Shown in pieces: positions 19,840 through 48,217 of a stretch of 48,217 nt of DNA; position 1 is the first letter of the stretch, and every line of letters starts with the position of its first letter. The notes below the pieces were generated by a model, which searched no databases, was not told the DNA's origin, and was given only the letters and a program-made list of their open reading frames with translations. Position numbers and translations under genes: made by a program. Where the stretch lies: positions 1-48,217 of IMG/VR virus record IMGVR_UViG_3300036859_000196. One strand, written 5' to 3'. The DNA is from a virus.

Positions 19840-20037
19840 ATGACCATGACCCCTGACCTCCAGAAACTCCAGGACATGCTCGGCGCCATGCAGCAGCAGC
19901 GCGACCAGGCGCTGAACTCCGTGGTGCTCGCTTATGCTGAGATCGCGGCGCTGAAGCGCACGGTAGCGGAGCAGGGTTTGCGGATCAAGGAGCTGGAGGC
20001 CACAGCGCTTCCTAAAACGGAAGGCGTCGCTCCATGA
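19840..20037 (+). CDS. Small coiled-coil protein
   Basis: ATG 19840 inside ORF 19672..20037; stop overlaps endolysin ATG. Confidence 0.35.
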   Translation: MTMTPDLQKLQDMLGAMQQQRDQALNSVVLAYAEIAALKRTVAEQGLRIKELEATALPKTEGVAP

Positions 20038-21570: not shown

Positions 21571-21577
21571 GCAGTCA

Positions 21578-23218: not shown

Positions 23219-23247
23219 TTGACGTACTGACCTTGAGCGTCTACATT
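23219..23247 (+). promoter_or_regulatory. Sigma70-like promoter inside the left inverted repeat
   Basis: TTGACG, 17-nt spacer, TACATT upstream of transposase start. Confidence 0.4.
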
Positions 23248-23275
23248 GGCGGTCATGAGATCAGGGGATGCCGCC

Positions 23276-27157: not shown

Positions 27158-27405
27158 ACATCCGCGAGGCCATGCGTGACATCAATGCCGGCCCCATCGG
27201 TGGCGAGGGCGGCGACCTGGAACGCACCACGCGATCAGCGAGGCGCATCTGCAGCGCTATGTGACGGAAGCCACCTTCAAGTGGAACCACCGCATCGCGC
27301 TTGGCGTAGACGATACTGCTCGTGCCAAGGCCGCTCTCAAGTCCATTGGCGGCAAGCGCTTGACGTACGGGACAACTCGTGGAGCCCAGAACGCCTAAGC
27401 AGCGG
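27158..27405 (+). pseudogene. Internally deleted remnant of the IS1595 transposase gene
   Basis: Near-identical to 23618-23691 joined to 24035-24207 (343-bp internal deletion); no inverted repeats nearby. Confidence 0.7.
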
Positions 27406-30985: not shown

Positions 30986-31035
30986 TGGCGGTCCCGGCAG
31001 GGCTTGAACCCGCAACCTCCGCGTTCGAAGCGCGG
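30986..31035 (-). other. attP core: 3' ~50-nt fragment of a tRNA-Arg(UCG)-like gene
   Basis: Minus strand reads anticodon stem-loop CCGCG-CTTCGAA-CGCGG, T-arm GCGGG-TTCAAGC-CCTGC, acceptor 3' strand, CCA; no D-arm or 5' acceptor strand. Confidence 0.55.
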
Positions 31036-31120
31036 CCACACGGCGCCACATGTGTGATTTTGCTGGGGTTTTTCGCGCGCATCGTCGTCCAAATCGCCCG
31101 CTCTTCGCATTTCGTTCTCG

Positions 31121-31936
31121 CTAGGTCGGTTCACATGAACCGACCAACGTCCGCGTATCCGAGAAGCGGGGGGGGGCCGCAGGGGTGCTGGCGAGTTCAC
31201 CCACCATCCACTTCGCGGCATCGGCCTTGATCTGCTCGAACACGACGGGGTGCTGGCTCTTGAAGTCCGGCATGCGCGACGACGCCACGTATCCCTGCGC
31301 GGTCGCGTCGAGCCAAATCTGCGTCCAGCGCGCCGCGTCGAGTCCGAGCAGTTTGAAGTCGCGTCGCGTCACGGGTCTCCGCTCCAGAATGGCAACGATC
31401 TTGAGCGCCTTGATCTTCCACGCCGTCAGTTGGACCGGGGCACTATGGCCGGCGCCGCTGTCGGGGACATAGTCAGGGAGGGCGACCCGCTTCACCGGGC
31501 ACCACTCGTGCCAATGTCGGTCATCGCCCCAGCGCTCGGCGACGTGCGGCAGATCGGGTTCGAACCTGCGGCGGTAGACCCGCTCGGACGGTGGCCATAT
31601 CGTTATCACAGTGAGTCCGAGCCAGTTGCAGATCGTGCCGAGCCCGTTCTGCTTTCCTCCTTCTGGCACCAGCACGGCACGACAATCCGGGCCGATCTCG
31701 GCGGCTCCGTACCAACGTTCGGGCAGCGCCTGCACCGCCACCGTGTTGTTGAGGATGAGCTTGGCCTCGATGCCAATCTGGAAGCCGTCTTCCCTGCGAA
31801 CGAGCAGGATGTCCCAGCCGCCAGTCTCGGCATACGCAACCCAGGCGTCACCCTTTGTGACCTGCGTGATGAACTCGGCGCAGAGCGCGACCTCGCTCTC
31901 GAAACCGGGCTTGCGGGATCGCTTCGTGGCCGTCAT
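31121..31936 (-). CDS. Hypothetical protein with PD-(D/E)xK nuclease-like motif
   Basis: Starts at ATG overlapping integrase stop; motif DILLVRREDGFQIGIEAKL; G9 tract encodes PPP near C-terminus. Confidence 0.45.
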   Translation of the reverse strand: MTATKRSRKPGFESEVALCAEFITQVTKGDAWVAYAETGGWDILLVRREDGFQIGIEAKLILNNTVAVQALPERWYGAAEIGPDCRAVLVPEGGKQNGLGTICNWLGLTVITIWPPSERVYRRRFEPDLPHVAERWGDDRHWHEWCPVKRVALPDYVPDSGAGHSAPVQLTAWKIKALKIVAILERRPVTRRDFKLLGLDAARWTQIWLDATAQGYVASSRMPDFKSQHPVVFEQIKADAAKWMVGELASTPAAPPRFSDTRTLVGSCEPT

Positions 31937-33039
31937 TCCCTGCCCCGCTTGTCCTCGATCGCCTTCGGCTCCCGCAGCGACAGCGCATTCGCCGCGCGCT
32001 GCAGGTAGTCCGGGTGGAAGCGCGCATAGACGCGCTCGGTGATCGCCGTGGAAGTGTGGCCCATGTACTGGCTGATCTCCGCCATTGGCAGCCGGGCCTG
32101 GGCCATCCAGACACCGGCGGTGTGGCGGAGCACGTAGGGTGTGACATCGTCGAGCTTGGCGCGGCGTGCGGCAGCCACGATGGCCTGGCGCACGCCCTGG
32201 CGGCCAGTGATGGGAGCCTCGTTGTACTCGATTACCCACTCGGTCTGAGCCATCTCGCGCGCCAGCTTTAGCGTCTCATAGGCCTCCTCATTGAGCGGCA
32301 CGCGAGCGCGGCCCTTGCGGGTGGCATCGCGCTCCGGGTCGTCGAGGTTCACGTGACCGAAGTAGGTGACCCCGCTCTGGGGGTGCGTCCACTTCTTGAG
32401 CGTGACGCGGTCCCATGTGAGCTGCAGGATGTGGCTCGGCCGGCCGGCGGTGGCGAACGCCAGCTGCAGCCACACCTTGACGTGGAACGCCTTGGCGGCG
32501 TCGATCAGTCGGACGGCCTCAGCCTTGGTCAACCACCGCTCACGCGGCCGGGCTGCCGGCGGGCGCTCGATCTCCGGACGGTCGCCTGAATAGAGCTTCT
32601 TCCGCTTGCCAAAGCCGAGCGCCGCAGAGAGATAAACCAGCTCGGACCGGATGCCGCCGTTCGACACCCCATGACCGCGCCGATGCCTGGCATAGGCCCG
32701 GCAGGTGGTGTCCTCGATCTGGTCCGGCATCAGGTGCCCGAAGTGTGATGCCATCGGTTTCCAGGCCTCGCGCATGCGGCGCGCGTCCTTGCCGACCGCC
32801 TCGCGGTCCTTGACGTACAGGTCGTAGATCGAGGCCATGGCAACCGCCTTCCCGTCTTTCCCCTGGCGCTGTGCCTCGGAGAGGCCGCTGTTCCAGCGCG
32901 CTACCTCGCGGTCAGCATCCGGCCGATTGCCCGTTGTCGCTTTGATGCCGAGCGCATGGCGCTGTTTGCTGCGTCCATGCCCCCAGACGACGCACCAGAC
33001 GCCGCGGTGTCGTCCGCGCCTGTAGACTTGATCCCCCAT
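31933..33039 (-). CDS. int: Tyrosine integrase
   Basis: N-terminal RGVWCVVWGHGRSKQRHALG arm-type region; C-terminal VLRHTAGVWMAQA...YMGHTSTAITERVYARF catalytic region. Confidence 0.85.
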   Translation of the reverse strand: MGDQVYRRGRHRGVWCVVWGHGRSKQRHALGIKATTGNRPDADREVARWNSGLSEAQRQGKDGKAVAMASIYDLYVKDREAVGKDARRMREAWKPMASHFGHLMPDQIEDTTCRAYARHRRGHGVSNGGIRSELVYLSAALGFGKRKKLYSGDRPEIERPPAARPRERWLTKAEAVRLIDAAKAFHVKVWLQLAFATAGRPSHILQLTWDRVTLKKWTHPQSGVTYFGHVNLDDPERDATRKGRARVPLNEEAYETLKLAREMAQTEWVIEYNEAPITGRQGVRQAIVAAARRAKLDDVTPYVLRHTAGVWMAQARLPMAEISQYMGHTSTAITERVYARFHPDYLQRAANALSLREPKAIEDKRGRE

Positions 33040-33233
33040 CGCACCAGCAACGCCTCCAGATCCTCGCGCCTCACGCGCACCATGCCGTCGATCCGAACCA
33101 CGGGTAGGCCCGTGCCGGGTTGATCCTTCTCGCGCTCGATCAGCGCGTAGACCTTGCTCTTCGAGCAATCGAGCTCCCGCGCGACGCTGCGGACCGAGAG
33201 AAGACGCGGCGGCAGAACTGCGGTGTCGGTCAT
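32901..33233 (-). CDS. xis: Excisionase / AlpA-like HTH protein
   Basis: LLSVRSVARELDCSKSKVYALIE...LPVVRIDGMVRVRREDLEALL; 3' end overlaps int start. Confidence 0.5.
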   Translation of the reverse strand: MTDTAVLPPRLLSVRSVARELDCSKSKVYALIEREKDQPGTGLPVVRIDGMVRVRREDLEALLVRWGIKSTGADDTAASGASSGGMDAANSAMRSASKRQRAIGRMLTAR

Positions 33234-33451
33234 GGCCCCGCCCTCTCATAGACCCGCGCCAGCTCGGCCCGCGTATAGGCCCCGTCGTAGCGGTCGCTCG
33301 CGGCGTCGACGACCCGGCAGCCCGCCTCGAATTCACGCATCTCGCGGCGGTGCATCCACCACAGCATCGCAAGGCCGCCAGCGAGACCGACGACGCAGCC
33401 GACGAGGCCGCCAAGGGCGCCGACGGCGAGAAGGATCGGATCGAAAGTCAT
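33230..33451 (-). CDS. Small membrane protein
   Basis: Hydrophobic N-terminus ILLAVGALGGLVGCVVGLAGGLAMLWW. Confidence 0.4.
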   Translation of the reverse strand: MTFDPILLAVGALGGLVGCVVGLAGGLAMLWWMHRREMREFEAGCRVVDAASDRYDGAYTRAELARVYERAGP

Positions 33452-36947: not shown

Positions 36948-37793
36948 CTATGCGGTCTCAATCAACTCGATCACCTTGTCGGCCATTTTTGTCCACGCCG
37001 CGCTCCACGCCGCGCTCCACGCCGCGCTCTCCGCGCTCCACGCCGCGCTCTCCGCGCTCCACGCCGCGCTCTCCGCGCTCCTCGCCGCGCTCTCCGCGCT
37101 CCTCGCCGCGCTCCTCGCCGCGCTCGCCGCGCTCCTCGCCGCGCTCTCCGCGCTCCACGCCGCGCTCCACGCCGCGCTCCACGCCGCGCTCTCCGCGCTC
37201 ATCGCCGCGCTCCACGCCGCGCTCTCCGCGCTCATCGCCGCGCTCCTCGCCGCGCTCGCCGCGCTCCTCGCCGCGCTCCTCGCCGCGCTCCTCGCCGCGC
37301 TCGCCGCGCTCCTCGCCGCGCTCCTCGCCGCGCTCTCCTCTGGACGTGCGCCCTTGCACATCGGCAAGAGAACGTCAGCACACTGACGCACAGCGTCCCG
37401 CACCAGATCATGCTCGATGCCTGGATTGACGCTGCTGTCTGTCAGCAGCCAATGCAGAAAGCGCCAGCCCACGCAGGACAGATCGGCGCCGGGGCGGATC
37501 GCGCGCATGAAACGCTCGGGCCACGCCTGAGCGGCGCCATTCGGCAGGCCTTCAAAGATCGAGTCTTCCAGGTGTGCCAGCATCACCGGGATGCCGAAGC
37601 GCGTCTCGTACTCCACGTGGTTGTCGCTGTAGAGCGTGCAGCCGACCGCGCACCCCTTGCCGTTCTGCCAATACTGGCCCTTGATGATCTCGTCGGCGGC
37701 GCGGTGGCGGGCGAGTTGGGCCAGGATGTCGATCTTGGCCTGGGGGTCGCCGTGGTAGGCCTGCATCGGGGTGCTCTCCTGCAATGGCGGCAT
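36948..37793 (-). CDS. Protein with globular N-terminal domain and ~29 tetrapeptide repeats
   Basis: Repeats SAAR/SAAW/SAES/SAAS/SAAM encoded by 12-nt units; likely start ATG 37766 (AGGAGA RBS). Confidence 0.55.
   Translation of the reverse strand: MPPLQESTPMQAYHGDPQAKIDILAQLARHRAADEIIKGQYWQNGKGCAVGCTLYSDNHVEYETRFGIPVMLAHLEDSIFEGLPNGAAQAWPERFMRAIRPGADLSCVGWRFLHWLLTDSSVNPGIEHDLVRDAVRQCADVLLPMCKGARPEESAARSAARSAASAARSAARSAARSAASAARSAAMSAESAAWSAAMSAESAAWSAAWSAAWSAESAARSAASAARSAARSAESAARSAESAAWSAESAAWSAESAAWSAAWSAAWTKMADKVIELIETA
36990..37340. repeat. Tandem array of ~29 imperfect 12-nt repeats
   Basis: Units like GCGCTCCACGCC / GCGCTCTCCGCC; all six frames open across the array. Confidence 0.85.
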
Positions 37794-38392: not shown

Positions 38393-38839
38393 CTAACGCC
38401 CGCCGCGTCGGACCCAGGTTATCGGCGCGGCCCAATCGATCAAGACGTTTTCCATGGGCCGCGACAAGGGGTTATAGGACCGCAGCGTGTAGCGATCCGG
38501 CATAGTGCCCTTGTCGAGGATCTTAATCAGCGTCTCGCCGTCGTCGGTCCGCAGCGCGCAGTCGAGCCCGATCAGGTTGTCGAGATACTTGCCGGCCCGT
38601 CTCTGGCAGAACAGCTGATCGCCGTCGCGATACGTGGGCGACATCGAGTCGCCGCGAACCTCGATTGCAAAGGCTCCCGACCCCGCCTCGAAAGCGAAGT
38701 CGGCCACCTCGGGCGGGCGGCCCTTTGTCGGCTCCTGGAAGGGCGTCCAGCGCTCCGCGCCATTTGCAATGCCCACCAGCGGGATCTGGAGCTGGAAGCG
38801 CTCGTCGCCCGACAAGAGCATCATGGGGTGCACGTCCAA
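38393..38839 (-). CDS. S24 (LexA/CI-type) peptidase domain, probable C-terminal part of a frameshifted CI-like repressor
   Basis: VRGDSMSPTYRDGDQLF (Ser) and TLIKIL (Lys); HTH-like sequence continues upstream in this frame and in the neighbouring frame. Confidence 0.65.
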   Translation of the reverse strand: MDVHPMMLLSGDERFQLQIPLVGIANGAERWTPFQEPTKGRPPEVADFAFEAGSGAFAIEVRGDSMSPTYRDGDQLFCQRRAGKYLDNLIGLDCALRTDDGETLIKILDKGTMPDRYTLRSYNPLSRPMENVLIDWAAPITWVRRGGR

Positions 38840-39623: not shown

Positions 39624-41057
39624 ATGCACGGCAATCGCATAATCGGCGGAACGATCGCGGCTCTCACGGTGGGCTGCCTGTTCCTCACCGCCTGGATCAT
39701 GCACCGCAGCGGGGCGCTGCAGGGCGCCACCGAGGATGGACGATGGGCGCTGGGGCTCGCGGCGATCGCGGTGCATCTAGGCCTCGCGGTGTTCGGCCTG
39801 GCCATGTTCGCGTCGCGCAAGCTCGCGGTCACCCTGGTCTGCGGGTTGATGGTGCTCGGCGCCGCGGCGTGTTCGGCCTGGCAGATCGCGACCTTCCTGG
39901 CCACCGAGGTGATCAGCGTCACCAAGGCGCGGGAGGCAATCGAGAAGCGTGAGGATGTTCGCGCGGCCGCGGCGCTCGAAGCGGCCAAGGAGCAGCGCAA
40001 GACGCAGGCCAAGCTCGCCGAGGACGAGCTCAAGTGGAGCCGTGGGACAACGCGCGAGGTCGGCGGCCGGCGCGAACGCAAGGAGATGGCCGACGCGCGA
40101 GCGAAGCTGATTGCCGAGATGGGCAAGGCCGAGATGGCCGCAGCGGCGCCGGCGCCGAAGGCCGAGACGGCGCCGCAGGTACAATCCGGAGCCGTGGCGC
40201 AGTGGGTCGCCGCCCGCATGGGCTGGGACGAGACCGCCATGCAGGCGTCACCCTACCTGATGATCGCGCTCATGCTGCTGGCCATCGAGGTCGTCGGCTG
40301 GCCGATGGCGAGCTTCTATTGGAACCGGCCTGGGCCACAGATCATCACCGTGACTGCGGAGCAGGTGGCGCCTGTGCCGACGCCGCCCCGAACCGAACCC
40401 ATTGCCGCCGCATCTGAGTTGCCCGCTCTACTCCTGCCGGCGCCCGAGCCCGCCAAGGTGCAGCCCGCCAGGCTGCCGCCTCCCCGCACGCGCCAGCCGG
40501 TCTCAGAGCCTGCGCGCGCCGCACTGGATGCCGTGGGCTACCCATGGATCAAGCCGCGCGGGCCGCTGCTGGAGCAGCCACTCACCGCGGAGAAGTTTGC
40601 GGTCTGGCTGCGCGCATTCGGTTTCGACGGCGCACACGATTTCCACAAGATCCAGCGCCTCTACCAGGAGGCCTGCACCGAGTTCCACTGCGAGGCGCTG
40701 AGCTACAAGACGCTCGCCGGCACGCTCGACAACCGCCGTCTCGGCGTCGTCAAGAAGACCGGCGGCCCCGTGACCTGGATCGTCACACCCTTCCGCGCAA
40801 AGAAGGCCGCGCCTGAGGCGGCGGCTGAGCAGCCAGAACAGCGTCTCGACGGCGAGCAAGAGCCGGTCTCGGAGGGCCGGCGAGGGATCATCCCTTTCTC
40901 CGCCGCGGCACGGGCGCCGCATAAGCCAATGGCCCGGATCAACTTCCGCCAGTTCGACCACCCGGCAATCGTGCAAGCGAGGGCGCACGCGCTGCGGCGC
41001 GAGGGGCGCATGGTGCGGCGGCAGCGTGGTGCGCGCGTGAACAGGAGGGCGGCGTGA
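39624..41057 (+). CDS. Large membrane protein of unknown function
   Basis: ATG 39624; about four N-terminal hydrophobic segments, Ala/Glu/Lys coiled coil, Pro-rich linker, C-terminal domain. Confidence 0.5.
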   Translation: MHGNRIIGGTIAALTVGCLFLTAWIMHRSGALQGATEDGRWALGLAAIAVHLGLAVFGLAMFASRKLAVTLVCGLMVLGAAACSAWQIATFLATEVISVTKAREAIEKREDVRAAAALEAAKEQRKTQAKLAEDELKWSRGTTREVGGRRERKEMADARAKLIAEMGKAEMAAAAPAPKAETAPQVQSGAVAQWVAARMGWDETAMQASPYLMIALMLLAIEVVGWPMASFYWNRPGPQIITVTAEQVAPVPTPPRTEPIAAASELPALLLPAPEPAKVQPARLPPPRTRQPVSEPARAALDAVGYPWIKPRGPLLEQPLTAEKFAVWLRAFGFDGAHDFHKIQRLYQEACTEFHCEALSYKTLAGTLDNRRLGVVKKTGGPVTWIVTPFRAKKAAPEAAAEQPEQRLDGEQEPVSEGRRGIIPFSAAARAPHKPMARINFRQFDHPAIVQARAHALRREGRMVRRQRGARVNRRAA

Positions 41058-41074
41058 CTGAGGGGCGCACCGAG

Positions 41075-41338
41075 ATGGCGCTGAGGTTCATCGACCTTGC
41101 GATTGCCAAGGGCGACCTCAAATTCGGCTACGGAGCAATCGCCGCTCATCTGGAGATCATGACCGGCGAGGAACACACGGTCGGCATGGTAGCGGGATTG
41201 CTCGACAGAGAAGGGAAGCGTAGGCCGCATGAAAAGCAGAAGCCCCCGGCTGCTGACCGCCGAGGGCTTCGAGAACTGAGTAACCCGTCCCGGCAAGGAG
41301 GATCACACATGGACACCAAGGAGGCATCCGATGCCTGA
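41075..41338 (+). CDS. Hypothetical protein
   Basis: Internal Met MALRFIDLAIAKGDLKFGYG... of ORF 41054..41338. Confidence 0.3.
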   Translation: MALRFIDLAIAKGDLKFGYGAIAAHLEIMTGEEHTVGMVAGLLDREGKRRPHEKQKPPAADRRGLRELSNPSRQGGSHMDTKEASDA

Positions 41339-42305
41339 TGAAATAGAGGCAAACGGCGGCAAAAGCAAGGCCCCCAAGCGGAAATCCACGCGCGATAGCG
41401 ACCTTTGGTACAAGCGCTACCCGGCTCGGTTCCGCAGAGACACGATGCACGATCATCCGATGCCGTTCGATCTGCGATGCCAGTGGAGCCTGCTGACCGA
41501 TCTGTTCTACGAGCACGGCGGTCCGCTGCTGAATGACGACCGATGGGTCGCTCTCCAGTTCGGCTGCGACGTGCGCAAATGGAAGCATATCCGCGCGCAG
41601 CTTTTCGCTCATGGGAAACTAACCATCGGCCCCGACGGATTGATCCACAACAAGACCGCCGACGAGGTGATCGGCGAGCGCGCCGACAAGCTCGTAAAGA
41701 CTGCCGTTGCGCCAGCAAGACGACGCCTCGGGAAGGGCGCGACCCCTGCCAGTACCCCTGCCACTACCTCGGTCGGTAGTCCCCCCGGTAGTCCCCCCGG
41801 TACTGGCGCCGATCTTTCCGAAAAGCCCAATGATATCAACGAAGGCGCGCAAAAAACGGCCGGAGACACGCGCGCGTCTTTAGATCTTCCTTCGGAAGAG
41901 AGAAGAGAGATAGAGAGAAGAGAGATCCAGACTCGTCCTTTTTCCTCTGTTGCTGCGCGTGAGGAAAAGGACGACGAGCGCAGGGTCGTTTTTGAAAACG
42001 GCAAGATCGAACTGTTCAACGGGATGCGAGCCTATTGGCTCGATCGGTTCGATGGTGACGGCGACCGACTGGAACTTGGTCTGATCCAGGCAGCGGCGTT
42101 CGTGCAGTCCAACTCGTCACGCCCCATCGAAGCGCAGGTCAGCGCGCAGCTCGCCCGGCAGTGCGCCGAGAGGCACGACCGCGACAAGCGGTACGCGGCC
42201 GCAGCTGACCGCAAGGCGGCAACCAACCCCGCGTCGGGTACAGACCCGCTGATGTCACCCAAACGCGCCCGTGCGCTCGCTGCCTACCAGGAGATGTTCG
42301 GATGA
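41331..42305 (+). CDS. Replication initiation protein (DUF1376/YdaU-like N-terminal domain)
   Basis: WYKRYPARFRRDTMHDHPMPFDLRCQWSLLTDLFYEHGGPL; internal repeats and AT-rich patch. Confidence 0.55.
   Translation: MPDEIEANGGKSKAPKRKSTRDSDLWYKRYPARFRRDTMHDHPMPFDLRCQWSLLTDLFYEHGGPLLNDDRWVALQFGCDVRKWKHIRAQLFAHGKLTIGPDGLIHNKTADEVIGERADKLVKTAVAPARRRLGKGATPASTPATTSVGSPPGSPPGTGADLSEKPNDINEGAQKTAGDTRASLDLPSEERREIERREIQTRPFSSVAAREEKDDERRVVFENGKIELFNGMRAYWLDRFDGDGDRLELGLIQAAAFVQSNSSRPIEAQVSAQLARQCAERHDRDKRYAAAADRKAATNPASGTDPLMSPKRARALAAYQEMFG
41895..41930. repeat. Two tandem ~15-bp direct repeats inside the replication gene, iteron-like
   Basis: AGAGAAGAGAGAT-AGAGAGAAGAGAGAT with adjacent CTTCC..GGAAG inverted repeat and T-run. 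Confidence 0.35.
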
Positions 42306-42733
42306 CACCCGACGAGTTCGTGCAGCGCCTGTTGAACCACATCGGTCCGCCCGATCACGCGACCGACCTAAAAACCTTCAAGGCCGACTACGTCGCAGCA
42401 CTCGGCGGTGCCGAGCCCGACATCCTGCGGGAAGCCTCGGAGCGACTGCTGAAGGCCCGCACGTACCGCGCGTGGCCGATGGTCGGCGAGTGCGTCGAAG
42501 CCGTCGGGGCTGTCGCCGGCGAACGCGAGCGGAAGCGCCAGCGCGAGAGCCGTGGCGGCACATCGCCCTACGCGACCAACAACGCGACGCCGGAGATGCG
42601 CCAGCGTGTCGCTGCCTTGGTGAAGGCCACCGTCGCGGAGATGGCCGAGAAAGCCGCGCATCGTGGCAATAAGCCGATCCTCTACGCGCTCTACGAGGAA
42701 ATTCACGGCAGGCCATGGAGGGAGCCGACATGA
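42302..42733 (+). CDS. Hypothetical protein
   Basis: 143-aa ORF coupled to replication gene. Confidence 0.4.
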   Translation: MTPDEFVQRLLNHIGPPDHATDLKTFKADYVAALGGAEPDILREASERLLKARTYRAWPMVGECVEAVGAVAGERERKRQRESRGGTSPYATNNATPEMRQRVAALVKATVAEMAEKAAHRGNKPILYALYEEIHGRPWREPT

Positions 42734-43077
42734 TCCGCCAGGTCCTCGCCAAGGACCCCGACGAGCCGATTTGCGACGCGTGCGCCGGGGCGCTCGGCGC
42801 GCATCCGACAGTGAACGCCATTGCCACCGTCTCGACGCGCGCGTGCTGCCTCTGCGACGAGGAACGCCCATGCGCCGCGATCCGCGACTGGTCGTGGCCG
42901 ACAAATCCCACGGCGGGGCGGGGCGACACGCGCGCGCTGCATCAAGCAATCTCTGCCGACACTGACAGCCAGGCGAGCGCTGCTGCCCCGTCCGTGGGCC
43001 TGACAACACCGCGCCGGCCGCACGACGAGCCGGACGACTACAGCGAACTCGAAACGCTGCTCGGGAGGCGCGCATGA
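42730..43077 (+). CDS. Hypothetical Cys-rich protein
   Basis: ATG 42730 overlaps upstream stop; CDAC...CCLCDEERPC. Confidence 0.4.
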   Translation: MIRQVLAKDPDEPICDACAGALGAHPTVNAIATVSTRACCLCDEERPCAAIRDWSWPTNPTAGRGDTRALHQAISADTDSQASAAAPSVGLTTPRRPHDEPDDYSELETLLGRRA

Positions 43078-43601
43078 CCAGAGCCCACCGCGACGGCCTC
43101 ATCGCCGCCGCCGTCCTGCTCGCGCTCATCGCGCTGCTCGCCGCCAACGCGCGATCGGAGCCCTACCGCGGCGACTACATCGACGAAGAGCAGCGCGCCA
43201 ACCGCCGCGCGCTGCTGGCGCACAATTGCTTCTGGTACGGAACACACTGCCGCGGCTGGCGCCCGCGCGCGCAGCAGCGCCATGCCCAGCCTTCGATCGA
43301 CAGCGACGTGGTGTGCCATCGCCTCACCGAGGCCACCGGCGAGCAGGCGCAATCGAAGGAAGCCGCAGAGGAGCGCGCGCTTCGCGCTTGGCAAGGCCGC
43401 GTGCGGTTCCACTTCGGCGAAAGATTTATCGCCTTCGATAACGCACGCGACGCGCGCATCGCCTGCTCGCCGTCGTCGGTCGCCGATACGGTGGGCGGCA
43501 AGATCCAGGACAAGCTTCTCGGCATCTCGCACTTCCGCTGCGAGATCTCGGCAAGGCCCTGCCGGGCTCCGGCCCGCAAGGTCAATCGCGGCGATGACTG
43601 A
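43074..43601 (+). CDS. Secreted or membrane-anchored protein
   Basis: N-terminal LIAAAVLLALIALLAANA signal-like segment; several Cys. Confidence 0.45.
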   Translation: MTRAHRDGLIAAAVLLALIALLAANARSEPYRGDYIDEEQRANRRALLAHNCFWYGTHCRGWRPRAQQRHAQPSIDSDVVCHRLTEATGEQAQSKEAAEERALRAWQGRVRFHFGERFIAFDNARDARIACSPSSVADTVGGKIQDKLLGISHFRCEISARPCRAPARKVNRGDD

Positions 43602-43653
43602 TCATCGCCGATGCGTTTCCGTTGCGTTGCGTTTGACATGTCAACAACCAAGG

Positions 43654-44322
43654 ATGAAAACCGCAATGGAATGGTTCAACTCAAGCGACAACCGCAAGAC
43701 GGTTTGGAAGGTCGGTCTGATCTGCCTCGGCGTGCTCGCCGCGGTGATGATCTTCAGCGGCCTGCTCAACAGGGCGCGTGCCGACGGCCCGTCGAAGAAG
43801 GGCCAGATCGCAGCCGCTACGCCCGCGCCAGCCCGGCTATGGACGGGCGTCTACGTCGGCGGCTTCGGCAGCTACGCCACCGGCACGCTGGGCGACTCCG
43901 GCCCCATCGACATCTCGTCGACCGGGCCGTTCGCCGGCCTCAACGTCGGCCTCAACGTGCAGACCGGCCAGATCGTGTGGGGCTTCGAGGTCGCGCACGC
44001 CTGGGCGTTCGGCGACCTCAAGGACATCGGCATCGATCGCGAGCTTGAATACACTGGCCGCGTCGGCGTCCTGTGGAACCCGCAGGCACTGCTGTACGTG
44101 CACGGATCGTTCGCGCAGATCGCGACCAAGTTCGGCGACTTCGAGGGCTGGAAGGGCGGCGTGGGCGTCGAGATCCGCACGCCGTCCGAGGGCTGGTCTA
44201 TGGACCTGCGCGGCGGCTATGCAGACTATGACGTTCACCCCTCAGTTGAGGCGAACATGCTGTGGCTGCGCGTCGGCCTCAACAAGCGGTTCGACATGCC
44301 GGCGGGGTGGTTCGGCCAATGA
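43654..44322 (+). CDS. Outer-membrane beta-barrel-like protein
   Basis: Signal peptide then alternating hydrophobic/aromatic strands, Gly/Tyr-rich; ends ...AGWFGQ. Confidence 0.5.
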   Translation: MKTAMEWFNSSDNRKTVWKVGLICLGVLAAVMIFSGLLNRARADGPSKKGQIAAATPAPARLWTGVYVGGFGSYATGTLGDSGPIDISSTGPFAGLNVGLNVQTGQIVWGFEVAHAWAFGDLKDIGIDRELEYTGRVGVLWNPQALLYVHGSFAQIATKFGDFEGWKGGVGVEIRTPSEGWSMDLRGGYADYDVHPSVEANMLWLRVGLNKRFDMPAGWFGQ

Positions 44323-44429
44323 CACGCGCCATCCTGTTCGCGTTCCTACTGCTCGCCGGCTGTGCCGAGGTGCGTGAGGTCATGCATCTCGGACAGCCAG
44401 CGGGCCACACTGAAGGGGAGCGGAAGTGA
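44319..44429 (+). CDS. Small lipoprotein (36 aa)
   Basis: Hand translation MTRAILFAFLLLAGCAEV... with lipobox LLAGC; ATGA overlap with upstream stop. Confidence 0.35.
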   Translation: MTRAILFAFLLLAGCAEVREVMHLGQPAGHTEGERK

Positions 44430-44937
44430 TCTCCGAGACCCATACAGCAATCATCGTTTGGCTGGCCCTGGCGATACTCGCCAGCGGCCTGCCGGGAGGG
44501 TGGTGATGAGCATCGAGCTATCCGTCATAATCCACCACGAGACGGCCGCCGCTTGGCTGGTCTCCGACACGGGCGAGCGCGCCGACGGTGAGGCGCGGGC
44601 ATGACGCGGTACGTCACGGAGATGCGGAAGCCGCCGAAAGCCGACTGGATGGACGCCGTTGTCGTCCCAACGCTCGTTCACCCGGTCGTGAGCGTGGGGC
44701 CCCCTGTTTATACGGGCCTGCTTGATCGGAACGGCCACCGCATCTTGCGCGTGCCCAACGAGGTCGGCTTTGTCCCGAGGCGTGAGAAGCCATGAGCCGC
44801 CCCGTCCACCTCAAGGGCTTCCGCATCGGCAAGGGCGGCCGGGTCGAGAAGGACCCGAAACGGCTCGACGCCTCGGCTCGCGCGCGGCAGCGGCCGGGCG
44901 GGTCGAAGCGGGTGCGCGTCAAACGCAAGGGCGCCTG

Positions 44938-45516
44938 ATGCGCGAGATTGGCCCCGAGCTGACCGGCCGCACCGAGTATGTGCCCCATCGGGCGCTAACG
45001 CTGATCGACATGCTCTACCGCGATCGGGATCCAGAAAAGCGGCTCAGCGACGCGAAATTCCACGCGGGCCGCGATCTGCGCCGGCTGTGGATAGTGCGCC
45101 TCGGCCACAGCGAGGGTGTCGGCGGCTACGGCGATGGATCGCGCGCAACGGACCTACCGAAAGCCGATCGCGCCGGCCTCGCGCAGACCGGTTTCCGGAT
45201 CCAGAATGACGGCTCCGTCACGTTCAAGGCAGGCAAGCGCCGCGGCCGCACCAACGAGCGCCACCTGGAGGACGCCCTTTTCGCCGCCCTGGGCTTGCAC
45301 GACCAGGAGGGCAACAAGGTGCACGCCACCGAGCTTGAGATAGCGCTGTTGATCGGTGCGGTCGACCAAGCCGATCCGCCGTTGACGCTGACCGGCATCA
45401 CGCTTGCGCTCAGCCGGCGCTACAAGGAGACTTCTAAGCAGGCGCCACCCTGGGGCATGGGCTTCCTAGACGTGACGCTGGGGCGGCTCGCCAAGCACTT
45501 CGGCTACATGCGATGA
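44938..45516 (+). CDS. Hypothetical protein
   Basis: ATG 44938 inside ORF 44722..45516; upstream of terS. Confidence 0.4.
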   Translation: MREIGPELTGRTEYVPHRALTLIDMLYRDRDPEKRLSDAKFHAGRDLRRLWIVRLGHSEGVGGYGDGSRATDLPKADRAGLAQTGFRIQNDGSVTFKAGKRRGRTNERHLEDALFAALGLHDQEGNKVHATELEIALLIGAVDQADPPLTLTGITLALSRRYKETSKQAPPWGMGFLDVTLGRLAKHFGYMR

Positions 45517-45654
45517 ACGGTCGCGCGGGATCCAAATTCCGCCCCGCCGGGATCTATGGCAGGTGTGGAAATCACTACAGTGGCGCTTCACGCCCACGCC
45601 CCAAGCCCGCCCGCGCCGAACGTGCCGAGGCGGGCTTTCCATTGCCCCACATCG

Positions 45655-46245
45655 ATGGCCAGCAAGCAGAAGTCCCGCTCGAAGTCCGCACCGAAGGCAA
45701 AGCCCGCGAACAGCTCCAAGCGGAGCCGCGGCAGGCCAAGCGACTTCAAGTCGGAGTTCTGCGATCAGGCCGAGAAGCTGTGCAAGCTCCTCAACGCCGA
45801 CGATCTGGCGCTCGCGGCCTTCTTCGAGAAGGACGTCGCCACCATCAACCGATGGAAGAAGGCGCACGCTGAATTCCGCGCGTCGATAAAAAGGGGGAAG
45901 ATCGCGGCCGACATCGAGGTCGCGCACAGCTTTCATGAACGCGCCCGCGGCTACGAGTGGCAAGAGGCCGTGCCGATCAAGCTGAAGACCGTCGAGTACC
46001 ACGATGGCAAGCGGGTCAAGGAGAGCGAGCGCGTCGAGATCGTCATGGTCACAAAGCGCCAACCTGCGGACGTGACGGCGGGCATCTTCTGGATGAAGAA
46101 CCGACAGCACGAGACGTGGCGCGACAAGCACGATCACGCGCACTCCGGCGCCGTCGATGTGAACCTCACAGAGGTACGCGGTGGAATTGCGGGCAAGCTC
46201 GATCGCATCGCTTCCGCCCTCGAAAAGGCAAGCGTTCCTCGATAG
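45655..46245 (+). CDS. terS: Terminase small subunit
   Basis: Basic N-terminus then RGRPSDFKSEFCDQAEKLCKL..DVATINRWKKAHAEFRASIKRGK HTH-like region. Confidence 0.65.
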   Translation: MASKQKSRSKSAPKAKPANSSKRSRGRPSDFKSEFCDQAEKLCKLLNADDLALAAFFEKDVATINRWKKAHAEFRASIKRGKIAADIEVAHSFHERARGYEWQEAVPIKLKTVEYHDGKRVKESERVEIVMVTKRQPADVTAGIFWMKNRQHETWRDKHDHAHSGAVDVNLTEVRGGIAGKLDRIASALEKASVPR

Positions 46246-47527
46246 CCTGAGCGGCGACGAGCTCGCCCACATCGAGCACGACTGGCGCTTCTGGGCTCGC
46301 GACGAGCAACTCGCACCGCCGGGCCTGTGGCGCATATGGCTGCTGCTGGCCGGACGCGGCTTCGGCAAGACCCGCGTCGGTGCCGAGTGGTGCCACGAAC
46401 GCGCCGCCGAGTCCGTCTGCCGCATCGCCATCGTCGGCGCCACGATGGACGACGCCCGCAAGATCTGCGTCGATGGCGAGTCCGGCATCATGGCGTGCGC
46501 CAAGCCGTGGTTCCGCCCGACCTTCGAGCCGTCGAAGAACGGCGGCACGGTGACGTGGCCCAACGGCTCGCTGGCCGAACTCTACTCGGGCGAGAAGCCG
46601 GACGGCCTGCGCGGGCCGCAGTTCCATGCGGCGTGGCTCGACGAGCTGCTGAAGTGGCGCCGCATGCAGGCGGCCTGGGACATGCTCAGGTTCGCGCTGC
46701 GGCTTGGCACTCACCCGCGCACCGTGATAACCACCACGCCGACGCCAGCGAAGCTGATCAAGGACCTGGTCAATGACAAGCGCACGGGGGCGGACGGTTT
46801 GCCCATGGTGCGCGTAGTGCGCGGCTCGACCTACGCCAACGCCGCCAACCTATCGGCCGACGCCCTCGACGAACTGCGCACCAAGTACGAGGGCACCCGC
46901 CTCGGCCGGCAGGAGCTGTTCGGCGAGATCCTCGAAGACCGCCCCGGCGCGCTCTGGACATATGCCAACATCGACGAGCACCGCATCAATGACCCGGAAC
47001 AGGTCCCCAAGCTTGAGCGCACCATCGTCGCCATCGATCCTCCCGTCACTTCGGGCGAGGATGCCGACGAGTGCGGCATCGTCGCCGCCGGGCGGGGGCC
47101 GCACTCGCACGCCTACGTGCTCGGCGATGCGTCCGAGCGGGGCCTCTCGCCTAAGCAATGGGCTCAGAAGGCGCTTCGGCTTTACCACGACACCGGTGCG
47201 GGCCTGATCGTCGCCGAGGCCAACAACGGCGGCGAGATGATCAAGCACGTGATCAACACCGAGGCGCCGGAGGTCAAGGTCAAACTGGTGCACGCTAGCA
47301 AGGGCAAGGTCACCCGCGCCGAGCCGGTGTCGAGCCTCTACGAGCAAGGCCGAGTGCACCACGTCGGCACCTTCAAGGCGCTCGAAGATCAGCAAACTGA
47401 CTTTACTGTGGATTGGGACCGCGACGTGATGGGCTACTCGCCCGACCGCGTCGACGCCCTGGTGTGGGCGATCACCGAACTGATGCTGGCCAACCGCGCC
47501 CGCGGCGGCCTTGTGGGGACGTTCTGA
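46181..47527 (+). CDS. terL: Terminase large subunit (GTA-like family)
   Basis: N-terminal LSGDELAHIEHDWRFWARDEQLAPPGLWRIWLLLAGRGFGKTR (Walker A-like); GTG start overlapping terS. Confidence 0.85.
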   Translation: MELRASSIASLPPSKRQAFLDSLSGDELAHIEHDWRFWARDEQLAPPGLWRIWLLLAGRGFGKTRVGAEWCHERAAESVCRIAIVGATMDDARKICVDGESGIMACAKPWFRPTFEPSKNGGTVTWPNGSLAELYSGEKPDGLRGPQFHAAWLDELLKWRRMQAAWDMLRFALRLGTHPRTVITTTPTPAKLIKDLVNDKRTGADGLPMVRVVRGSTYANAANLSADALDELRTKYEGTRLGRQELFGEILEDRPGALWTYANIDEHRINDPEQVPKLERTIVAIDPPVTSGEDADECGIVAAGRGPHSHAYVLGDASERGLSPKQWAQKALRLYHDTGAGLIVAEANNGGEMIKHVINTEAPEVKVKLVHASKGKVTRAEPVSSLYEQGRVHHVGTFKALEDQQTDFTVDWDRDVMGYSPDRVDALVWAITELMLANRARGGLVGTF

Positions 47528-47529
47528 TG
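47357..47529 (+). repeat. 173-bp direct repeat, copy B (3' end of terL)
   Basis: Identical to 48045..48217; its last 127 nt equal window 1..127. Confidence 0.85.
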
Positions 47530-47946
47530 GGTGACCTACTGGCAAGAGCGAGAGACCTTGCGCAGCGCGCCAGGAGCATTGAGGCGGATGCGCAGCGCCT
47601 TGACGACGCAATGGCCGGATCTCCGACGAGAAGTGAGGTCGAGCGCGCAGTCGACGAAGCTCAGCGGCTTAAGCCCGCCGTCTCGGCTCTCGCCAGGGGA
47701 CAGCACGCCCTCATCGATGAGGCCGGCCGCCTCGATGACGTCGATGACGCACCCGGCATCGAGGATGCCGTTGGCGCACTATTCGACGATCTGGAGTTCG
47801 ACGCCGAGCGCATCCTCTGGCTCATCAACAGCGTCATCTATGATGGTGGGAAGTACCTATCCACCCATACGCACGACACGTTTAACGATTGGCTAGACGC
47901 GAACAAATCGGCCCCTCGCCCCGGCGCTCACGCCGTCTACCGCTAA
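47527..47946 (+). CDS. Small acidic helical protein, C-terminal ...RPGAHAVYR tail family
   Basis: ATG 47527 overlaps terL stop (TGATG); shared C-terminal motif. Confidence 0.6.
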   Translation: MGDLLARARDLAQRARSIEADAQRLDDAMAGSPTRSEVERAVDEAQRLKPAVSALARGQHALIDEAGRLDDVDDAPGIEDAVGALFDDLEFDAERILWLINSVIYDGGKYLSTHTHDTFNDWLDANKSAPRPGAHAVYR

Positions 47947-47967
47947 CCGCGCCCTGAGGTACATCAT

Positions 47968-48044
47968 ATGAGCGCGCACGACTACTACAGCGACCTGCGC
48001 GGCAAAGGCGAAGTCGTCCATGTGCGCGAAAGGGTCGAGAGCGT
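47968..48044 (+). pseudogene. Truncated 5' copy of the MSAHDYYS gene (homologous to start of 1498..1875)
   Basis: First ~26 nt near-identical to 1498-1523; frame then runs into the terL 3' repeat. Confidence 0.4.
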
Positions 48045-48217
48045 CACCACGTCGGCACCTTCAAGGCGCTCGAAGATCAGCAAACTGACTTTACTGTGGA
48101 TTGGGACCGCGACGTGATGGGCTACTCGCCCGACCGCGTCGACGCCCTGGTGTGGGCGATCACCGAACTGATGCTGGCCAACCGCGCCCGCGGCGGCCTT
48201 GTGGGGACGTTCTGATG
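48045..48217 (+). repeat. 173-bp direct repeat, copy C (terL 3' end remnant)
   Basis: Identical to 47357..47529; continues as window 1..127. Confidence 0.85.

What the first reader, a model, noticed from the sequence alone, without database searches (positions are those of the whole stretch)
43074..44429. Cell-envelope cluster after the replication genes: secreted protein, outer-membrane beta-barrel-like protein, mini-lipoprotein
Three consecutive genes with export signals: a signal-peptide protein, a ~220-aa protein with an amphipathic strand pattern and aromatic-rich C-terminus, and a 36-aa lipoprotein with lipobox LLAGC. These are candidates for lysogenic conversion or superinfection exclusion by remodelling the host surface.
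Basis: inference. Interest (0 to 1): 0.45.

Follow-up and report, generated by a model that had tools for sequence, protein, structure and literature searches.

The report
Phage outer-membrane barrel with mini-lipoprotein partner
A temperate phage of an alphaproteobacterium carries, between its replication and packaging genes, a secreted cysteine-rich protein, a small eight-stranded outer-membrane barrel and a tiny lipoprotein that almost always travels with the barrel. This is a new family of a known kind of phage surface-modifying cargo, and its function has not been tested.

Summary
Positions 43074-44429 encode a Sec-exported 175-aa protein (g1), a 218-222-aa outer-membrane beta-barrel (g2) and a 36-aa lipoprotein (g3, lipobox LLAG|C).

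- **g2:** it passes Pfam PF13505 (32.7 bits against a cut-off of 28.7). AlphaFold gives eight strands, and the closest solved folds are OmpA-TM, NspA, Ail, OmpX and OmpW.
- **g3:** it is real. A g3 homologue lies next to the barrel gene in 6 of 7 independent related loci, usually with an ATGA overlap. A 26-aa membrane peptide (g4, ...LPGGW) follows in five loci.
- **g1:** it is a separable module, found with or without the barrel. Its fold is unresolved.

The window is a complete temperate phage genome with an integrase and an S24 repressor. Its lysis cassette (GH108 endolysin plus a spanin-like pair) lies at 20.0-21.6 kb, so the cluster is not the lysis module.

Every relative I examined sits in a phage contig in the same slot. 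I found none in cultured phages, IMG/VR or GTDB representative genomes.

The function (exclusion, receptor masking or host conversion) remains an inference. I found no own promoter or terminator, and composition matches the rest of the genome. Phage-encoded small barrels and lipoproteins are a known category, so this is a new family with an unusual coupled pair and is of moderate interest.

The parts
43074..43601 (+). g1: Sec-exported, cysteine-rich periplasmic or secreted protein (175 aa). It has a signal peptide (..LAANA|RS), a variable basic N-terminal region and a highly conserved ~90-aa C-terminal domain with 4 invariant Cys.
43590..43653 (+). g1-g2 intergenic region. It holds a hairpin around the g1 stop codon (43590-43609), the element CCGTTGCGTTGCGT (43619-43632), the 12-bp palindrome TTGACATGTCAA (43633-43644) and the Shine-Dalgarno sequence AAGGA.
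   Evidence: Sequence. A GCGT-rich element plus TCAACA/TCAAAC plus AAGGA recurs upstream of the barrel gene in L001, L002, L003, L009 and L010. The fold is no more stable than shuffles (z = -0.72). No sigma-70-type promoter or terminator was called. Function unknown.
43654..44322 (+). g2: eight-stranded outer-membrane beta-barrel protein (222 aa, or 218 aa from the ATG at 43666, which has better SD spacing). From N to C: signal peptide ..ARA|DG, a ~20-residue periplasmic linker, the barrel (residues 65-214), and a conserved 9-residue C-terminal extension DMPAGWFGQ after the beta-signal Phe213.
   Evidence: PF13505 at 32.7 bits, above the 28.7 cut-off. AF2 gives 8 strands, mean pLDDT 77.7 and pTM 0.63. 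Foldseek PDB top hits are OmpA-TM, NspA, Ail, OmpX and OmpW. BFVD top hits are phage 'outer membrane protein beta-barrel' proteins. There are 9 close homologues, 100 clusters at E<=1e-10 and 57 invariant columns.
44319..44429 (+). g3: mini-lipoprotein (36-aa precursor; lipobox LLAG|C; mature CAEVREVMHLGQPAGHTEGERK, 22 aa; Ala at +2, so outer-membrane sorting is expected by the E. coli rule). It is translationally coupled to g2 (ATGA).
   Evidence: Homologues with a lipobox and the CxE[VL]R[EDG] motif lie directly after the barrel gene in L002, L003, L009 and L010/L011, and 275 nt after it in L008. No family hit in Pfam, PHROGs, NCBIfam or PADLOC.
44426..44506 (+). g4: 26-aa single-pass membrane micro-protein (MISETHTAIIVWLALAILASGLPGGW), GTG start overlapping the g3 stop (GTGA).
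   Evidence: It is conserved, with an invariant LPGGW-stop end, in L001 (directly after the barrel gene), L008, L011 and L002. The best 12-aa hydropathy window scores 2.95.
44506..44604 (+). g5: 32-aa ORF, overlap-coupled (ATGA) on both sides. Weak evidence.
   Evidence: Only one related locus (L008) has a homologue, 74% identical over 23 aa. GC3 is 0.82.
44601..44795 (+). g6: 64-aa protein of a phage family of unknown function. It is the last of the overlap-coupled chain g2-g6.
   Evidence: phrog_23102, E = 6.9e-13. ATGA overlap with g5.

Best explanation
This is an accessory cell-envelope module of a temperate phage that infects an alphaproteobacterium, probably one related to Hyphomicrobiales.

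Shown or directly readable:
- g1 is exported by Sec and disulfide-rich.
- g2 is an eight-stranded OmpX/Ail/OmpA-TM-class outer-membrane barrel. It belongs to a lineage of PF13505 that lay in phage-like DNA in every case examined.
- g3 is a 22-residue (mature) lipoprotein whose gene is coupled to the barrel gene.
- g4 is a 26-residue membrane peptide.

Inferred:
- The barrel is inserted into the host outer membrane by BAM.
[quoted passage not shown] One possible contact is the conserved periplasmic tail FD[ML]P[AV]GW[FL]G that only this subfamily has.
- The pair alters the infected or lysogenic cell's surface for the phage's benefit. The most likely roles are masking or replacing a receptor, so that related phages cannot superinfect, and preventing progeny from being lost on debris.

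I give about 0.9 to the structural identities, about 0.6 to 'g2 and g3 act together', and about 0.35 to exclusion or receptor masking specifically. The module is not the lysis cassette and not a virion part.
For: - Barrel: Pfam hit above the gathering score, an 8-strand AF2 model and the fold matches.
- Lipoprotein and g4: conserved features across loci, with 4-nt start/stop overlaps linking g2, g3, g4, g5 and g6.
- Pairing: g3 is adjacent in 6 of 7 independent loci of the subfamily that has the C-terminal extension. More distant barrels without the extension (L007, L014/L015) have no such lipoprotein nearby. The extension is the most conserved segment of the barrel protein (0.84).
- Phage context: every relative I could place lies between replication genes and terminase, or in other phage-like DNA.
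- Temperate phage: integrase and S24 repressor.
- Lysis is encoded elsewhere: a GH108 endolysin and a spanin-like pair.
- The presumed extracellular hairpins are as conserved as the membrane part (0.63-0.76 against 0.77). That is unlike immune- or phage-driven hypervariable loops and fits a conserved binding role.
- Precedents: Cor, Lom and Bor (PMC3594210), the T5 Llp lipoprotein that blocks FhuA (PMC9586334), and prophage porins such as nmpC with a proposed exclusion role (PMC5381585).
Against: - There is no expression, localisation or phenotype data.
- No homology to any characterised exclusion protein.
- No promoter or terminator of its own was detected and composition is not atypical, so prophage expression is unsupported.
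- In L001 the adjacent lipoprotein is missing. Only a loosely similar one lies 1.1 kb away. In L016, a more distant member that has the extension, no mini-lipoprotein follows.
- The conserved codons of the extension (..GGG TGG..) could be kept partly as a ribosome-binding site for the downstream gene rather than as a protein contact.
- The topology used for the loop-conservation argument is inferred from DSSP output and the general rule for 8-stranded barrels, not from model coordinates.
Confidence: 0.5

Rival explanations
1. Host-benefit lysogenic conversion unrelated to phage exclusion. The barrel and lipoprotein would be expressed from the prophage and improve host fitness (adhesion, resistance to killing or predation, envelope robustness), as reported for lambda Lom (an Ail-like barrel) and Bor (a lipoprotein).
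For: The phage is temperate. The predicted fold is closest to the Ail/OmpX/NspA/OmpA-TM class, which includes adhesins and serum-resistance factors. For Lom and Bor as precedents see PMC3594210. A conserved element upstream of the barrel gene could be a regulatory site of its own.
Against: No autonomous promoter or terminator was found and composition is not distinct. The family is absent from GTDB representative genomes, and every context examined was phage-like, which does not fit a broadly host-beneficial gene. There is no Ail_Lom or Bor HMM hit. The loops are not hypervariable.
Confidence: 0.2
2. Envelope stabilisation or tethering during infection. The barrel, through its ~20-residue periplasmic N-terminal linker, and/or the mini-lipoprotein would link the outer membrane to peptidoglycan, as Omp25/Omp2b do in Brucella and Lpp does in E. 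coli. This would keep the envelope intact until programmed lysis.
For: Hyphomicrobiales-type barrels are covalently attached to peptidoglycan through their N-termini (PMC12729407, citing Godessart 2021). g2 has a Pro/Ala-rich linker before strand 1. Three g3 homologues end in Lys, as Lpp does. The distant chromosomal relatives are Omp25/RopB-like tandem genes.
Against: The predicted mature N-terminus is Asp/Glu-Gly, not the Ala-Asp reported for Omp25. The C-terminal Lys of g3 is not conserved: L008 ends in RR, L009 in E and L011 in L. A 22-residue tether is much shorter than Lpp. No benefit to the phage is apparent.
Confidence: 0.1
3. Lysis accessory. g3 would be an o-spanin-like or disruptin-like outer-membrane lipoprotein, g4 a holin- or antiholin-like peptide, and the barrel would weaken the outer membrane at the end of infection.
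For: In lambdoid phages the slot between the replication genes and the terminase holds the lysis genes. g3 is a small outer-membrane lipoprotein like Rz1, and g4 is a small membrane peptide.
Against: A full lysis cassette lies elsewhere: a GH108+PG_binding_3 endolysin at 20034-20888, a TM plus coiled-coil i-spanin-like gene, and a lipoprotein matching phrog_456 'Rz-like spanin' at about 21247-21570. g3 matches no spanin family, has no partner i-spanin next to it, and is not Pro-rich. No endolysin or holin lies next to the cluster in any related locus.
Confidence: 0.07
4. The genes are adjacent without any shared function. g1, g2, g3 and g4 would be independent small cargo genes that happen to accumulate in a recombination hot spot. 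On this reading g3 and g4 may be conserved mainly because they are overlap-coupled to their neighbours.
For: The region is mosaic among related phages. g1 is present, absent or relocated (L008). An AAA ATPase is inserted in L001, and other genes in L002.
Against: g3 stays directly downstream of the barrel gene across 52-80% protein divergence. It keeps its lipobox and mature motif while the flanking genes change.
Confidence: 0.13

Closest known systems
Lambda Lom (Ail/Lom family, PF06316) and Bor (PF06291): prophage-expressed outer-membrane barrel and lipoprotein
   Same: Both are a temperate-phage-encoded eight-stranded outer-membrane barrel plus a small outer-membrane lipoprotein, both accessory to the virion and to lysis. 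The predicted g2 fold matches Ail and OmpX among its top hits.
   Different: There is no sequence membership: only PF13505 is hit, and neither Ail_Lom nor Bor. In lambda, lom and bor are separate genes at different loci with their own expression. Here the two genes are overlap-coupled, and the lipoprotein is only 22 residues when mature. Expression in lysogens is unknown here.
Superinfection-exclusion lipoproteins Llp (T5) and Cor (phi80, N15, HK022)
   Same: They are small phage-encoded lipoproteins of the outer membrane's inner leaflet that act on an outer-membrane barrel from the periplasmic side (PMC9586334, PMC3594210). T5 makes Llp shortly after infection (bioRxiv 10.64898/2026.03.26.714494), which would fit g3's place in the rightward early operon.
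   Different: Llp and Cor target a host receptor (FhuA); from my own recollection of T5-like and T1-like genomes, not checked here, their genes sit next to the receptor-binding-protein gene. g3 sits next to a phage-encoded barrel, is much shorter than Llp or Cor, and shows no detectable homology.
Prophage porin genes nmpC (DLP12/qsr') and lc (PA-2)
   Same: They are outer-membrane protein genes carried by lambdoid prophages, with a proposed role in excluding phages that use host porins (PMC5381585, citing Highton 1985). From my own knowledge, not checked here, these genes lie between the early-regulatory region and the late genes, the same kind of slot as g2.
   Different: From my own knowledge, those are large trimeric general porins. 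g2 is a small 8-stranded barrel of PF13505 with a dedicated lipoprotein neighbour.
Omp25/RopB-like 'porin family' barrels of Hyphomicrobiales (PF13505)
   Same: They share the Pfam family and motifs such as VQTGQIVWG.E..W. Chromosomal tandem paralogues (L012, L013) are 27-32% identical to g2. They are probably the ancestral source of the phage gene.
   Different: The phage lineage has its own signature: GP.x.S..GP, FGDLKD[IV]G, Y.H.S[FW] and the C-terminal FDMPAGWFGQ extension. It ends in Gln/Asn/Arg instead of the terminal Phe, and in every case examined it lay in phage-like DNA.
Uncharacterised 'outer membrane protein beta-barrel' proteins of uncultured and cultured phages (BFVD: uncultured Caudovirales, Synechococcus phage S-CBWM1, Vibrio phage nt-1, Myxococcus phage Mx8 p58)
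   Same: They are small phage-encoded outer-membrane barrels with the same predicted fold (Foldseek E = 1e-6 to 1e-3). This shows the category is widespread.
   Different: Sequence identity is only 9-19%. tblastn with g2 and two family members finds nothing in 50,697 cultured-phage records. None of these proteins has an assigned function, and I know of no reported lipoprotein partner for them.

Membership tests
Pfam PF13505 OMP_b-brl (small outer-membrane beta-barrels, MBB clan) | HMM score at or above the curated gathering score | tested here: met
   32.7 bits against 28.7, E = 1.1e-7, covering residues 53-208 and profile positions 9-172 of 175. Two homologues carry precomputed PF13505 hits.
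Pfam PF13505 OMP_b-brl (small outer-membrane beta-barrels, MBB clan) | Closed antiparallel barrel of eight strands preceded by a cleavable Sec signal peptide | tested here: met
   AF2 predicts 8 strands (65-80, 86-104, 107-118, 127-142, 145-158, 161-175, 181-195, 198-214) with block pLDDT mostly 81-95. The top PDB folds are 8-stranded barrels. The AxA motif is invariant (A41, A43). This is a prediction only.
Pfam PF13505 OMP_b-brl (small outer-membrane beta-barrels, MBB clan) | C-terminal beta-signal ending in an aromatic residue at the extreme C-terminus | tested here: inconclusive
   The motif LRVGLNKRF with invariant F213 is present, but a conserved 9-residue extension follows it. Internal beta-signals exist in other outer-membrane proteins.
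Ail/Lom family (PF06316) | Match to the family HMM | tested here: not met
   No hit at E<=0.1 in the Pfam scan. The similarity to Ail is at fold level only (3qra, E = 1.3e-5, 16% identity).
Bacterial lipoproteins (signal peptidase II substrates) | Basic n-region, hydrophobic h-region and a lipobox [LVI][ASTVI][GAS]C within the first ~35 residues | tested here: met
   g3 begins MTR-AILFAFLL-LAG|C. The same holds in L002 (LSGC), L003 (LAGC), L008 (LAGC), L009 (LAGC) and L011 (LGGC).
Bacterial lipoproteins (signal peptidase II substrates) | Actual diacylglyceryl modification and Lol sorting | not testable with these tools
   This needs globomycin or palmitate labelling and membrane fractionation.
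Two-component spanins (o-spanin such as Rz1) | Lipoprotein gene embedded in, overlapping or adjacent to an i-spanin gene within the lysis cassette | tested here: not met
   g3 lies next to a barrel gene, 22 kb from the endolysin. A separate pair, TM plus coiled coil and lipoprotein, follows the GH108 endolysin at 20.9-21.6 kb and matches phrog_456. g3 matches no PHROG.
Llp/Cor superinfection-exclusion lipoproteins | Sequence homology to Llp or Cor, and a gene next to the receptor-binding-protein gene | tested here: not met
   No PHROG, Pfam or PADLOC hit for g3. The tail-fibre genes are at about 15-19.6 kb, not adjacent.
Llp/Cor superinfection-exclusion lipoproteins | Blocks adsorption or DNA entry of the same or related phages | not testable with these tools
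   This needs adsorption and plating-efficiency assays. No cultured host or phage is available.
Moron (autonomous accessory transcription unit in a phage genome) | Own promoter and terminator flanking the gene(s) | tested here: inconclusive
   There were 0 promoter-like sites and no + strand terminator in 41000-46500. The scan uses an E. coli-type consensus. A hairpin at the g1 stop and a conserved upstream element exist, but they are not significant as structure.
Moron (autonomous accessory transcription unit in a phage genome) | Composition different from the surrounding genome; patchy presence among related phages | tested here: inconclusive
   Composition is not different: GC is 0.64-0.69 and GC3 0.73-0.89, like the terminase and portal genes. 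Patchy presence is met: g1 occurs without the barrel and the barrel without g1.
Peptidoglycan-tethered envelope proteins (Lpp; Omp25-type barrels) | Conserved attachment residue (C-terminal Lys in Lpp; N-terminal Ala-Asp in Omp25) | tested here: not met
   The g3 C-terminus is K in 3 loci but RR, E and L in others. The predicted mature N-terminus of g2 is D/E-G. For the attachment motifs see PMC12729407.

The most novel reading that the evidence does not exclude
The barrel, its 18-23-residue lipopeptide and the 26-residue inner-membrane peptide form a dedicated phage-built envelope complex, a type of phage surface or exclusion device not described before. The lipopeptide would dock on the subfamily-specific periplasmic tail of the barrel. 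The complex would belong to a large lineage of small outer-membrane barrels (about 100 clusters at E<=1e-10) that lay in phage-like DNA wherever I checked, in uncultured temperate phages of Alphaproteobacteria.
Probability: 0.25. Interest if true: 0.6.

Novelty: new member of a known kind. Interest (0 to 1): 0.35.

Why it matters
Phage-encoded outer-membrane proteins and lipoproteins (Lom, Bor, Cor, Llp, NmpC) are classic examples of how phages rewrite the host surface. Almost all that is known about them comes from enterobacterial phages.

This locus defines a family of small barrels in temperate phages of soil and groundwater Alphaproteobacteria. Every member I could place lay in phage-like DNA. 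Part of the family is tightly coupled to an unusually small lipoprotein.

If the pair proves to be an exclusion or receptor-masking device, it would add a mechanism in which the phage supplies both the barrel and its lipoprotein ligand. It would also be a minimal model for barrel-lipoprotein recognition.

If it proves to be plain cargo, it is one more uncharacterised accessory module. Either way, it corrects any assumption that the slot before the terminase holds the lysis genes in this phage.

Tried and rejected
- **Lysis or spanin reading:** rejected after finding the endolysin and a spanin-like pair at 20.0-21.6 kb.
- **Cultured-phage relatives:** megablast of 40000-48217 and tblastn of g2, P0028 and P0030 against INPHARED found nothing. 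TerL reaches at most 50% identity, to phages of various hosts that include Brevundimonas, Roseobacter and Caulobacter phages.
- **Relatives in IMG/VR and GTDB representatives for g2 and g1:** none. The host therefore could not be named. A back-translated g3 motif scan of IMG/VR gave one chance match.
- **Catalytic H-x-S idea (PagL/OMPLA-like) for YVHGS in strand 5:** dropped. The Ser is not conserved in the wider family, and neither PagL nor PagP appears among the Pfam or fold hits.
- **Promoter or terminator, or an RNA element, between g1 and g2:** no consensus sites, the fold is not better than shuffles and there is no Rfam hit.
- **Codon-position test on g3 and g4:** too few sites to show purifying selection. 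The case for these genes rests on conserved ORF length, lipobox and motifs.
- **afdb50 fold library:** unavailable.
- **Third large protein search:** left unused, because a 36-aa query would not have changed the conclusion.
Full report
**What the window is**

The 48,217-base window (65% G+C) is a complete phage genome assembled as a circle. Bases 1-127 are repeated exactly at 48091-48217. The gene order is as follows.

| Region | Content |
|---|---|
| 11-1501 onward | portal, then head and tail genes |
| 20034-20888 | GH108 + PG_binding_3 endolysin (start of the lysis cassette) |
| 23246-24202 | IS1595 transposase, in a cargo region |
| 31933-33414 (-) | tyrosine integrase |
| 38393-38839 (-) | S24 (CI/LexA-like) repressor |
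| 39-46 kb (+) | rightward operon with a DUF1376/primosomal-like replication gene (41331-42305), the genes of the finding, then TerS |
| 45556-47527 | TerS (45556-46245, phrog_309) and TerL (46181-47527) |

The phage is therefore temperate with a lambdoid layout. The finding sits in the slot between replication and packaging.

**The observation**

All three ORFs exist as described.

- **g1 (43074-43601)** has a textbook Sec signal peptide (..LAANA|RS). All eleven family members have one.
- **g2 (43654 or 43666 to 44322)** has a signal peptide ending in the invariant A-x-A (ARA|DG).
  - It passes the Pfam gathering score for OMP_b-brl (32.7 against 28.7 bits).
  - AlphaFold2, run with a ten-sequence alignment, gives eight long antiparallel strands with block pLDDT mostly 81-95.
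  - Foldseek puts the OmpA transmembrane domain, NspA, Ail, OmpX and OmpW at the top of the PDB list. It puts phage 'outer membrane protein beta-barrel' proteins at the top of BFVD.
- **g3 (44319-44429)** is MTRAILFAFLLLAG|CAEVREVMHLGQPAGHTEGERK, with a canonical lipobox. Its start overlaps the g2 stop.

**Whether the 36-aa ORF is real**

On its own it could be chance in a 65% G+C genome. I collected relatives of g2 from a 5.8-billion-protein collection (9 hits) and from metagenome contigs, then read the DNA downstream.

There are seven independent loci with sequence after the barrel gene: the window, L001, L002, L003, L008, L009 and L010/L011. The last two overlap and are one phage.

- In five loci (the window, L002, L003, L009, L010/L011) a 33-41-aa lipoprotein starts at or within 8 nt of the barrel stop. 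Its mature N-terminus is C-[AS]-E-[VL]-R-[EDG].
- In L008 it lies 275 nt away.
- In L001 it is missing. Only a loosely similar lipoprotein (CGHVRE..) lies 1.1 kb downstream.

The barrel proteins in these loci are 52-80% identical to g2, so the pair has survived substantial divergence.

A 26-aa membrane peptide ending in LPGGW-stop (g4, 44426-44506) follows in the window, L001, L002, L008 and L011.

In the window, g2, g3, g4, g5 and g6 are chained by 4-nt ATGA or GTGA overlaps.

**What goes with what**

g1 is a separable module.

- It precedes the barrel gene in the window, L001 and L009.
- It precedes a divergent barrel gene in L007 and lies downstream in L008.
- It is absent from L002 and L003.
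- It occurs with no barrel in L004 and L005/L006.
- In every case it sits in the same pre-terminase slot of a phage contig.

The tight unit is therefore g2+g3, often with g4.

The barrel subfamily that carries the mini-lipoprotein also carries a 9-residue extension, FD[ML]P[AV]GW[FL]G[QNR], after the usual terminal Phe of the beta-signal. This extension is the most conserved stretch of the protein (0.84 majority fraction against 0.77 for the membrane-embedded strands).

More distant barrels without the extension (L007, L014/L015) have no such lipoprotein nearby. L016 has the extension but no mini-lipoprotein.

This correlation suggests that the periplasmic tail and the lipopeptide meet. The same codons (..GGG TGG TTC GGC CAA TGA) could also serve as the ribosome-binding site for the downstream gene. 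I could not run a complex prediction.

**How large and how phage-specific the family is**

A profile search of 1.84 billion cluster representatives found 961 proteins at E<=0.001, 100 at E<=1e-10 and 10 at E<=1e-30. Most are about 200 aa, and those looked up are singleton 'hypothetical proteins' from metagenomes.

Every relative I could place lies in phage-like DNA.

- **Close homologues:** P0004, P0006 and P0008.
- **More distant profile hits:**
  - P0023 lies between replication genes and NusG-like and terminase genes.
  - P0028 lies among YqaJ, HNH, integrase and many small genes.
  - P0022 lies after GcrA and DUF1376 genes.
  - P0021 is on a 3.7-kb contig with no recognisable domains, so its context is uninformative.

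The nearest chromosomal relatives are tandem Omp25/RopB-like genes at 27-32% identity (L012, L013). This points to Hyphomicrobiales-type hosts and to the likely origin of the phage gene. The GcrA and DUF1376 genes in related contigs fit Alphaproteobacteria. The TerL matches (at most 50% identity) include Brevundimonas, Roseobacter and Caulobacter phages but also phages of unrelated hosts, so they add little.

I found no relative in 50,697 cultured-phage records, in IMG/VR or in GTDB species representatives.

**What it is not**

It is not the lysis cassette. The order at 20.0-21.6 kb is endolysin (20034-20888), then a protein with a transmembrane helix and a coiled coil (about 20885-21250), then a lipoprotein (LFLAG|C, about 21247-21570) that matches phrog_456 'Rz-like spanin'.

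- g3 matches no spanin family and has no i-spanin partner.
- None of g1-g6 matches a PADLOC defence model or an NCBIfam model.
- g2 is not a member of Ail/Lom by HMM.
- The idea that YVHGS in strand 5 is a PagL/OMPLA-like catalytic pair was dropped, because the Ser is not conserved in the wider family.

**How it most likely works**

Shown: the export signals, the barrel family and predicted fold, the lipobox, the gene coupling, the conservation of the pair, the phage context, and temperate status.

Inferred:

- BAM inserts the barrel into the host outer membrane, with the N-terminal ~20-residue linker and the C-terminal tail in the periplasm.
- The 26-residue peptide sits in the inner membrane.

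The genes are embedded in the rightward early operon. I found no promoter or terminator of their own, and composition matches the rest of the genome. They should therefore be made at least during lytic growth. Whether they are also made in lysogens is unknown.

The presumed extracellular hairpins are as conserved as the membrane core. This is unlike surface antigens under diversifying selection and fits a conserved binding role.

Taken together with the precedents, I favour a phage-benefit surface function. Those precedents are Llp, made early by T5 to block FhuA (PMC9586334); Cor, Lom and Bor (PMC3594210); and prophage porins proposed to exclude other phages (PMC5381585). The likely roles are exclusion of related phages and/or protection of progeny by masking or replacing a receptor.

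| Reading | Probability |
|---|---|
| Exclusion or receptor masking (phage benefit) | ~0.35 |
| Host-benefit lysogenic conversion | ~0.2 |
| Envelope tethering | ~0.1 |
| Lysis accessory | <0.1 |
| Unrelated neighbours | ~0.13 |

g1 remains a periplasmic, disulfide-rich protein of unknown function. Its model is weak and its fold matches are generic.

**Novelty**

Phage-encoded small outer-membrane barrels are widespread and phage lipoproteins are classic, so the kind is known. What is new is the family itself and the overlap-coupled barrel plus mini-lipoprotein (plus micro-peptide) arrangement, for which I found no described counterpart. Function is untested, so I rate interest as moderate (0.35).

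Noticed in passing
window 1-127, 47403-47529, 48091-48217; also 47357-47529 = 48045-48217: An exact 127-nt terminal repeat indicates a circularly assembled complete genome. A third identical copy, and a 173-nt repeat of the terL 3' end, bracket a 515-bp segment (47530-48044). This is either an insertion between terL and the portal gene with a duplicated target, or an assembly artefact.
   Followed up: partly
window 20034-21901: The lysis cassette comprises a GH108+PG_binding_3 endolysin with a C-terminal hydrophobic helix, an i-spanin-like protein (TM plus coiled coil, about 20885-21250), an o-spanin-like lipoprotein (LFLAG|C, about 21247-21570, phrog_456), and a 107-aa single-TM protein (21578-21901) that may be the holin.
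   Followed up: partly
window 23246-24202; 27159-27221; 27219-27402: There is an IS1595-family transposase (DDE_Tnp_IS1595 plus zinc ribbon) inside the phage genome. About 3.5 kb away lie partial second copies of its sequence, 63 nt at 100% and 184 nt at 92% identity. This suggests a duplicated or decayed IS in the cargo region.
   Followed up: no
window 30989-31047 (-): A 59-nt tRNA-like fragment (Rfam RF00005, 30.8 bits) that ARAGORN does not call lies about 0.9 kb from the tyrosine integrase (31933-33414, -). It is probably the attP core derived from a host tRNA gene, and could be used to identify the host.
   Followed up: no
window 36956-37381: There is a long array with 9/12-nt periodicity (27 register-shifted copies) inside an ORF with extreme GC1. 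It encodes a repetitive, probably Gly/Ala/Arg-rich, protein in the early-left region.
   Followed up: no
window 43590-43653; L001, L002, L003, L009, L010 upstream of the barrel gene: A conserved GCGT-rich element (CCGTTGCGTTGCGT in the window), followed by TCAACA/TCAAAC and AAGGA, precedes the barrel gene in most related loci. The window also has a perfect 12-bp palindrome TTGACATGTCAA (43633-43644) and a hairpin over the g1 stop. This may be a regulatory site. Spacing is not fixed, and there is no significant RNA structure.
   Followed up: partly
window 42715-43077 and homologues in L001, L002, L008, L010: A small Cys-rich, zinc-finger-like protein (DEPICDACA...CCLCDEERPC) is conserved just upstream of g1 or the barrel gene and is overlap-coupled to g1. 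In L001 the gene caller fused it with g1.
   Followed up: no
L001 14914-17256; L002 13218-15431: The large terminase genes of two related phages carry intein-like Hint domains (780 and 737 aa). The window's TerL (448 aa) does not.
   Followed up: no
window 17391-17490 and 17983-18082: Two consecutive tail-fibre-like genes share an 82%-identical 100-nt 5' module (FxKLxAEIWRDxVTAGVPxSGAHD), as expected for exchangeable fibre genes with a common attachment domain.
   Followed up: no
L004, L006, L007 and the contig of P0023: Related phages encode a NusG-like protein (PF02357) just upstream of the terminase genes, probably a late-gene antiterminator. The window has instead an unrelated conserved 194-aa protein (44932-45516) that is shared with L002 and L003.
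   Followed up: no
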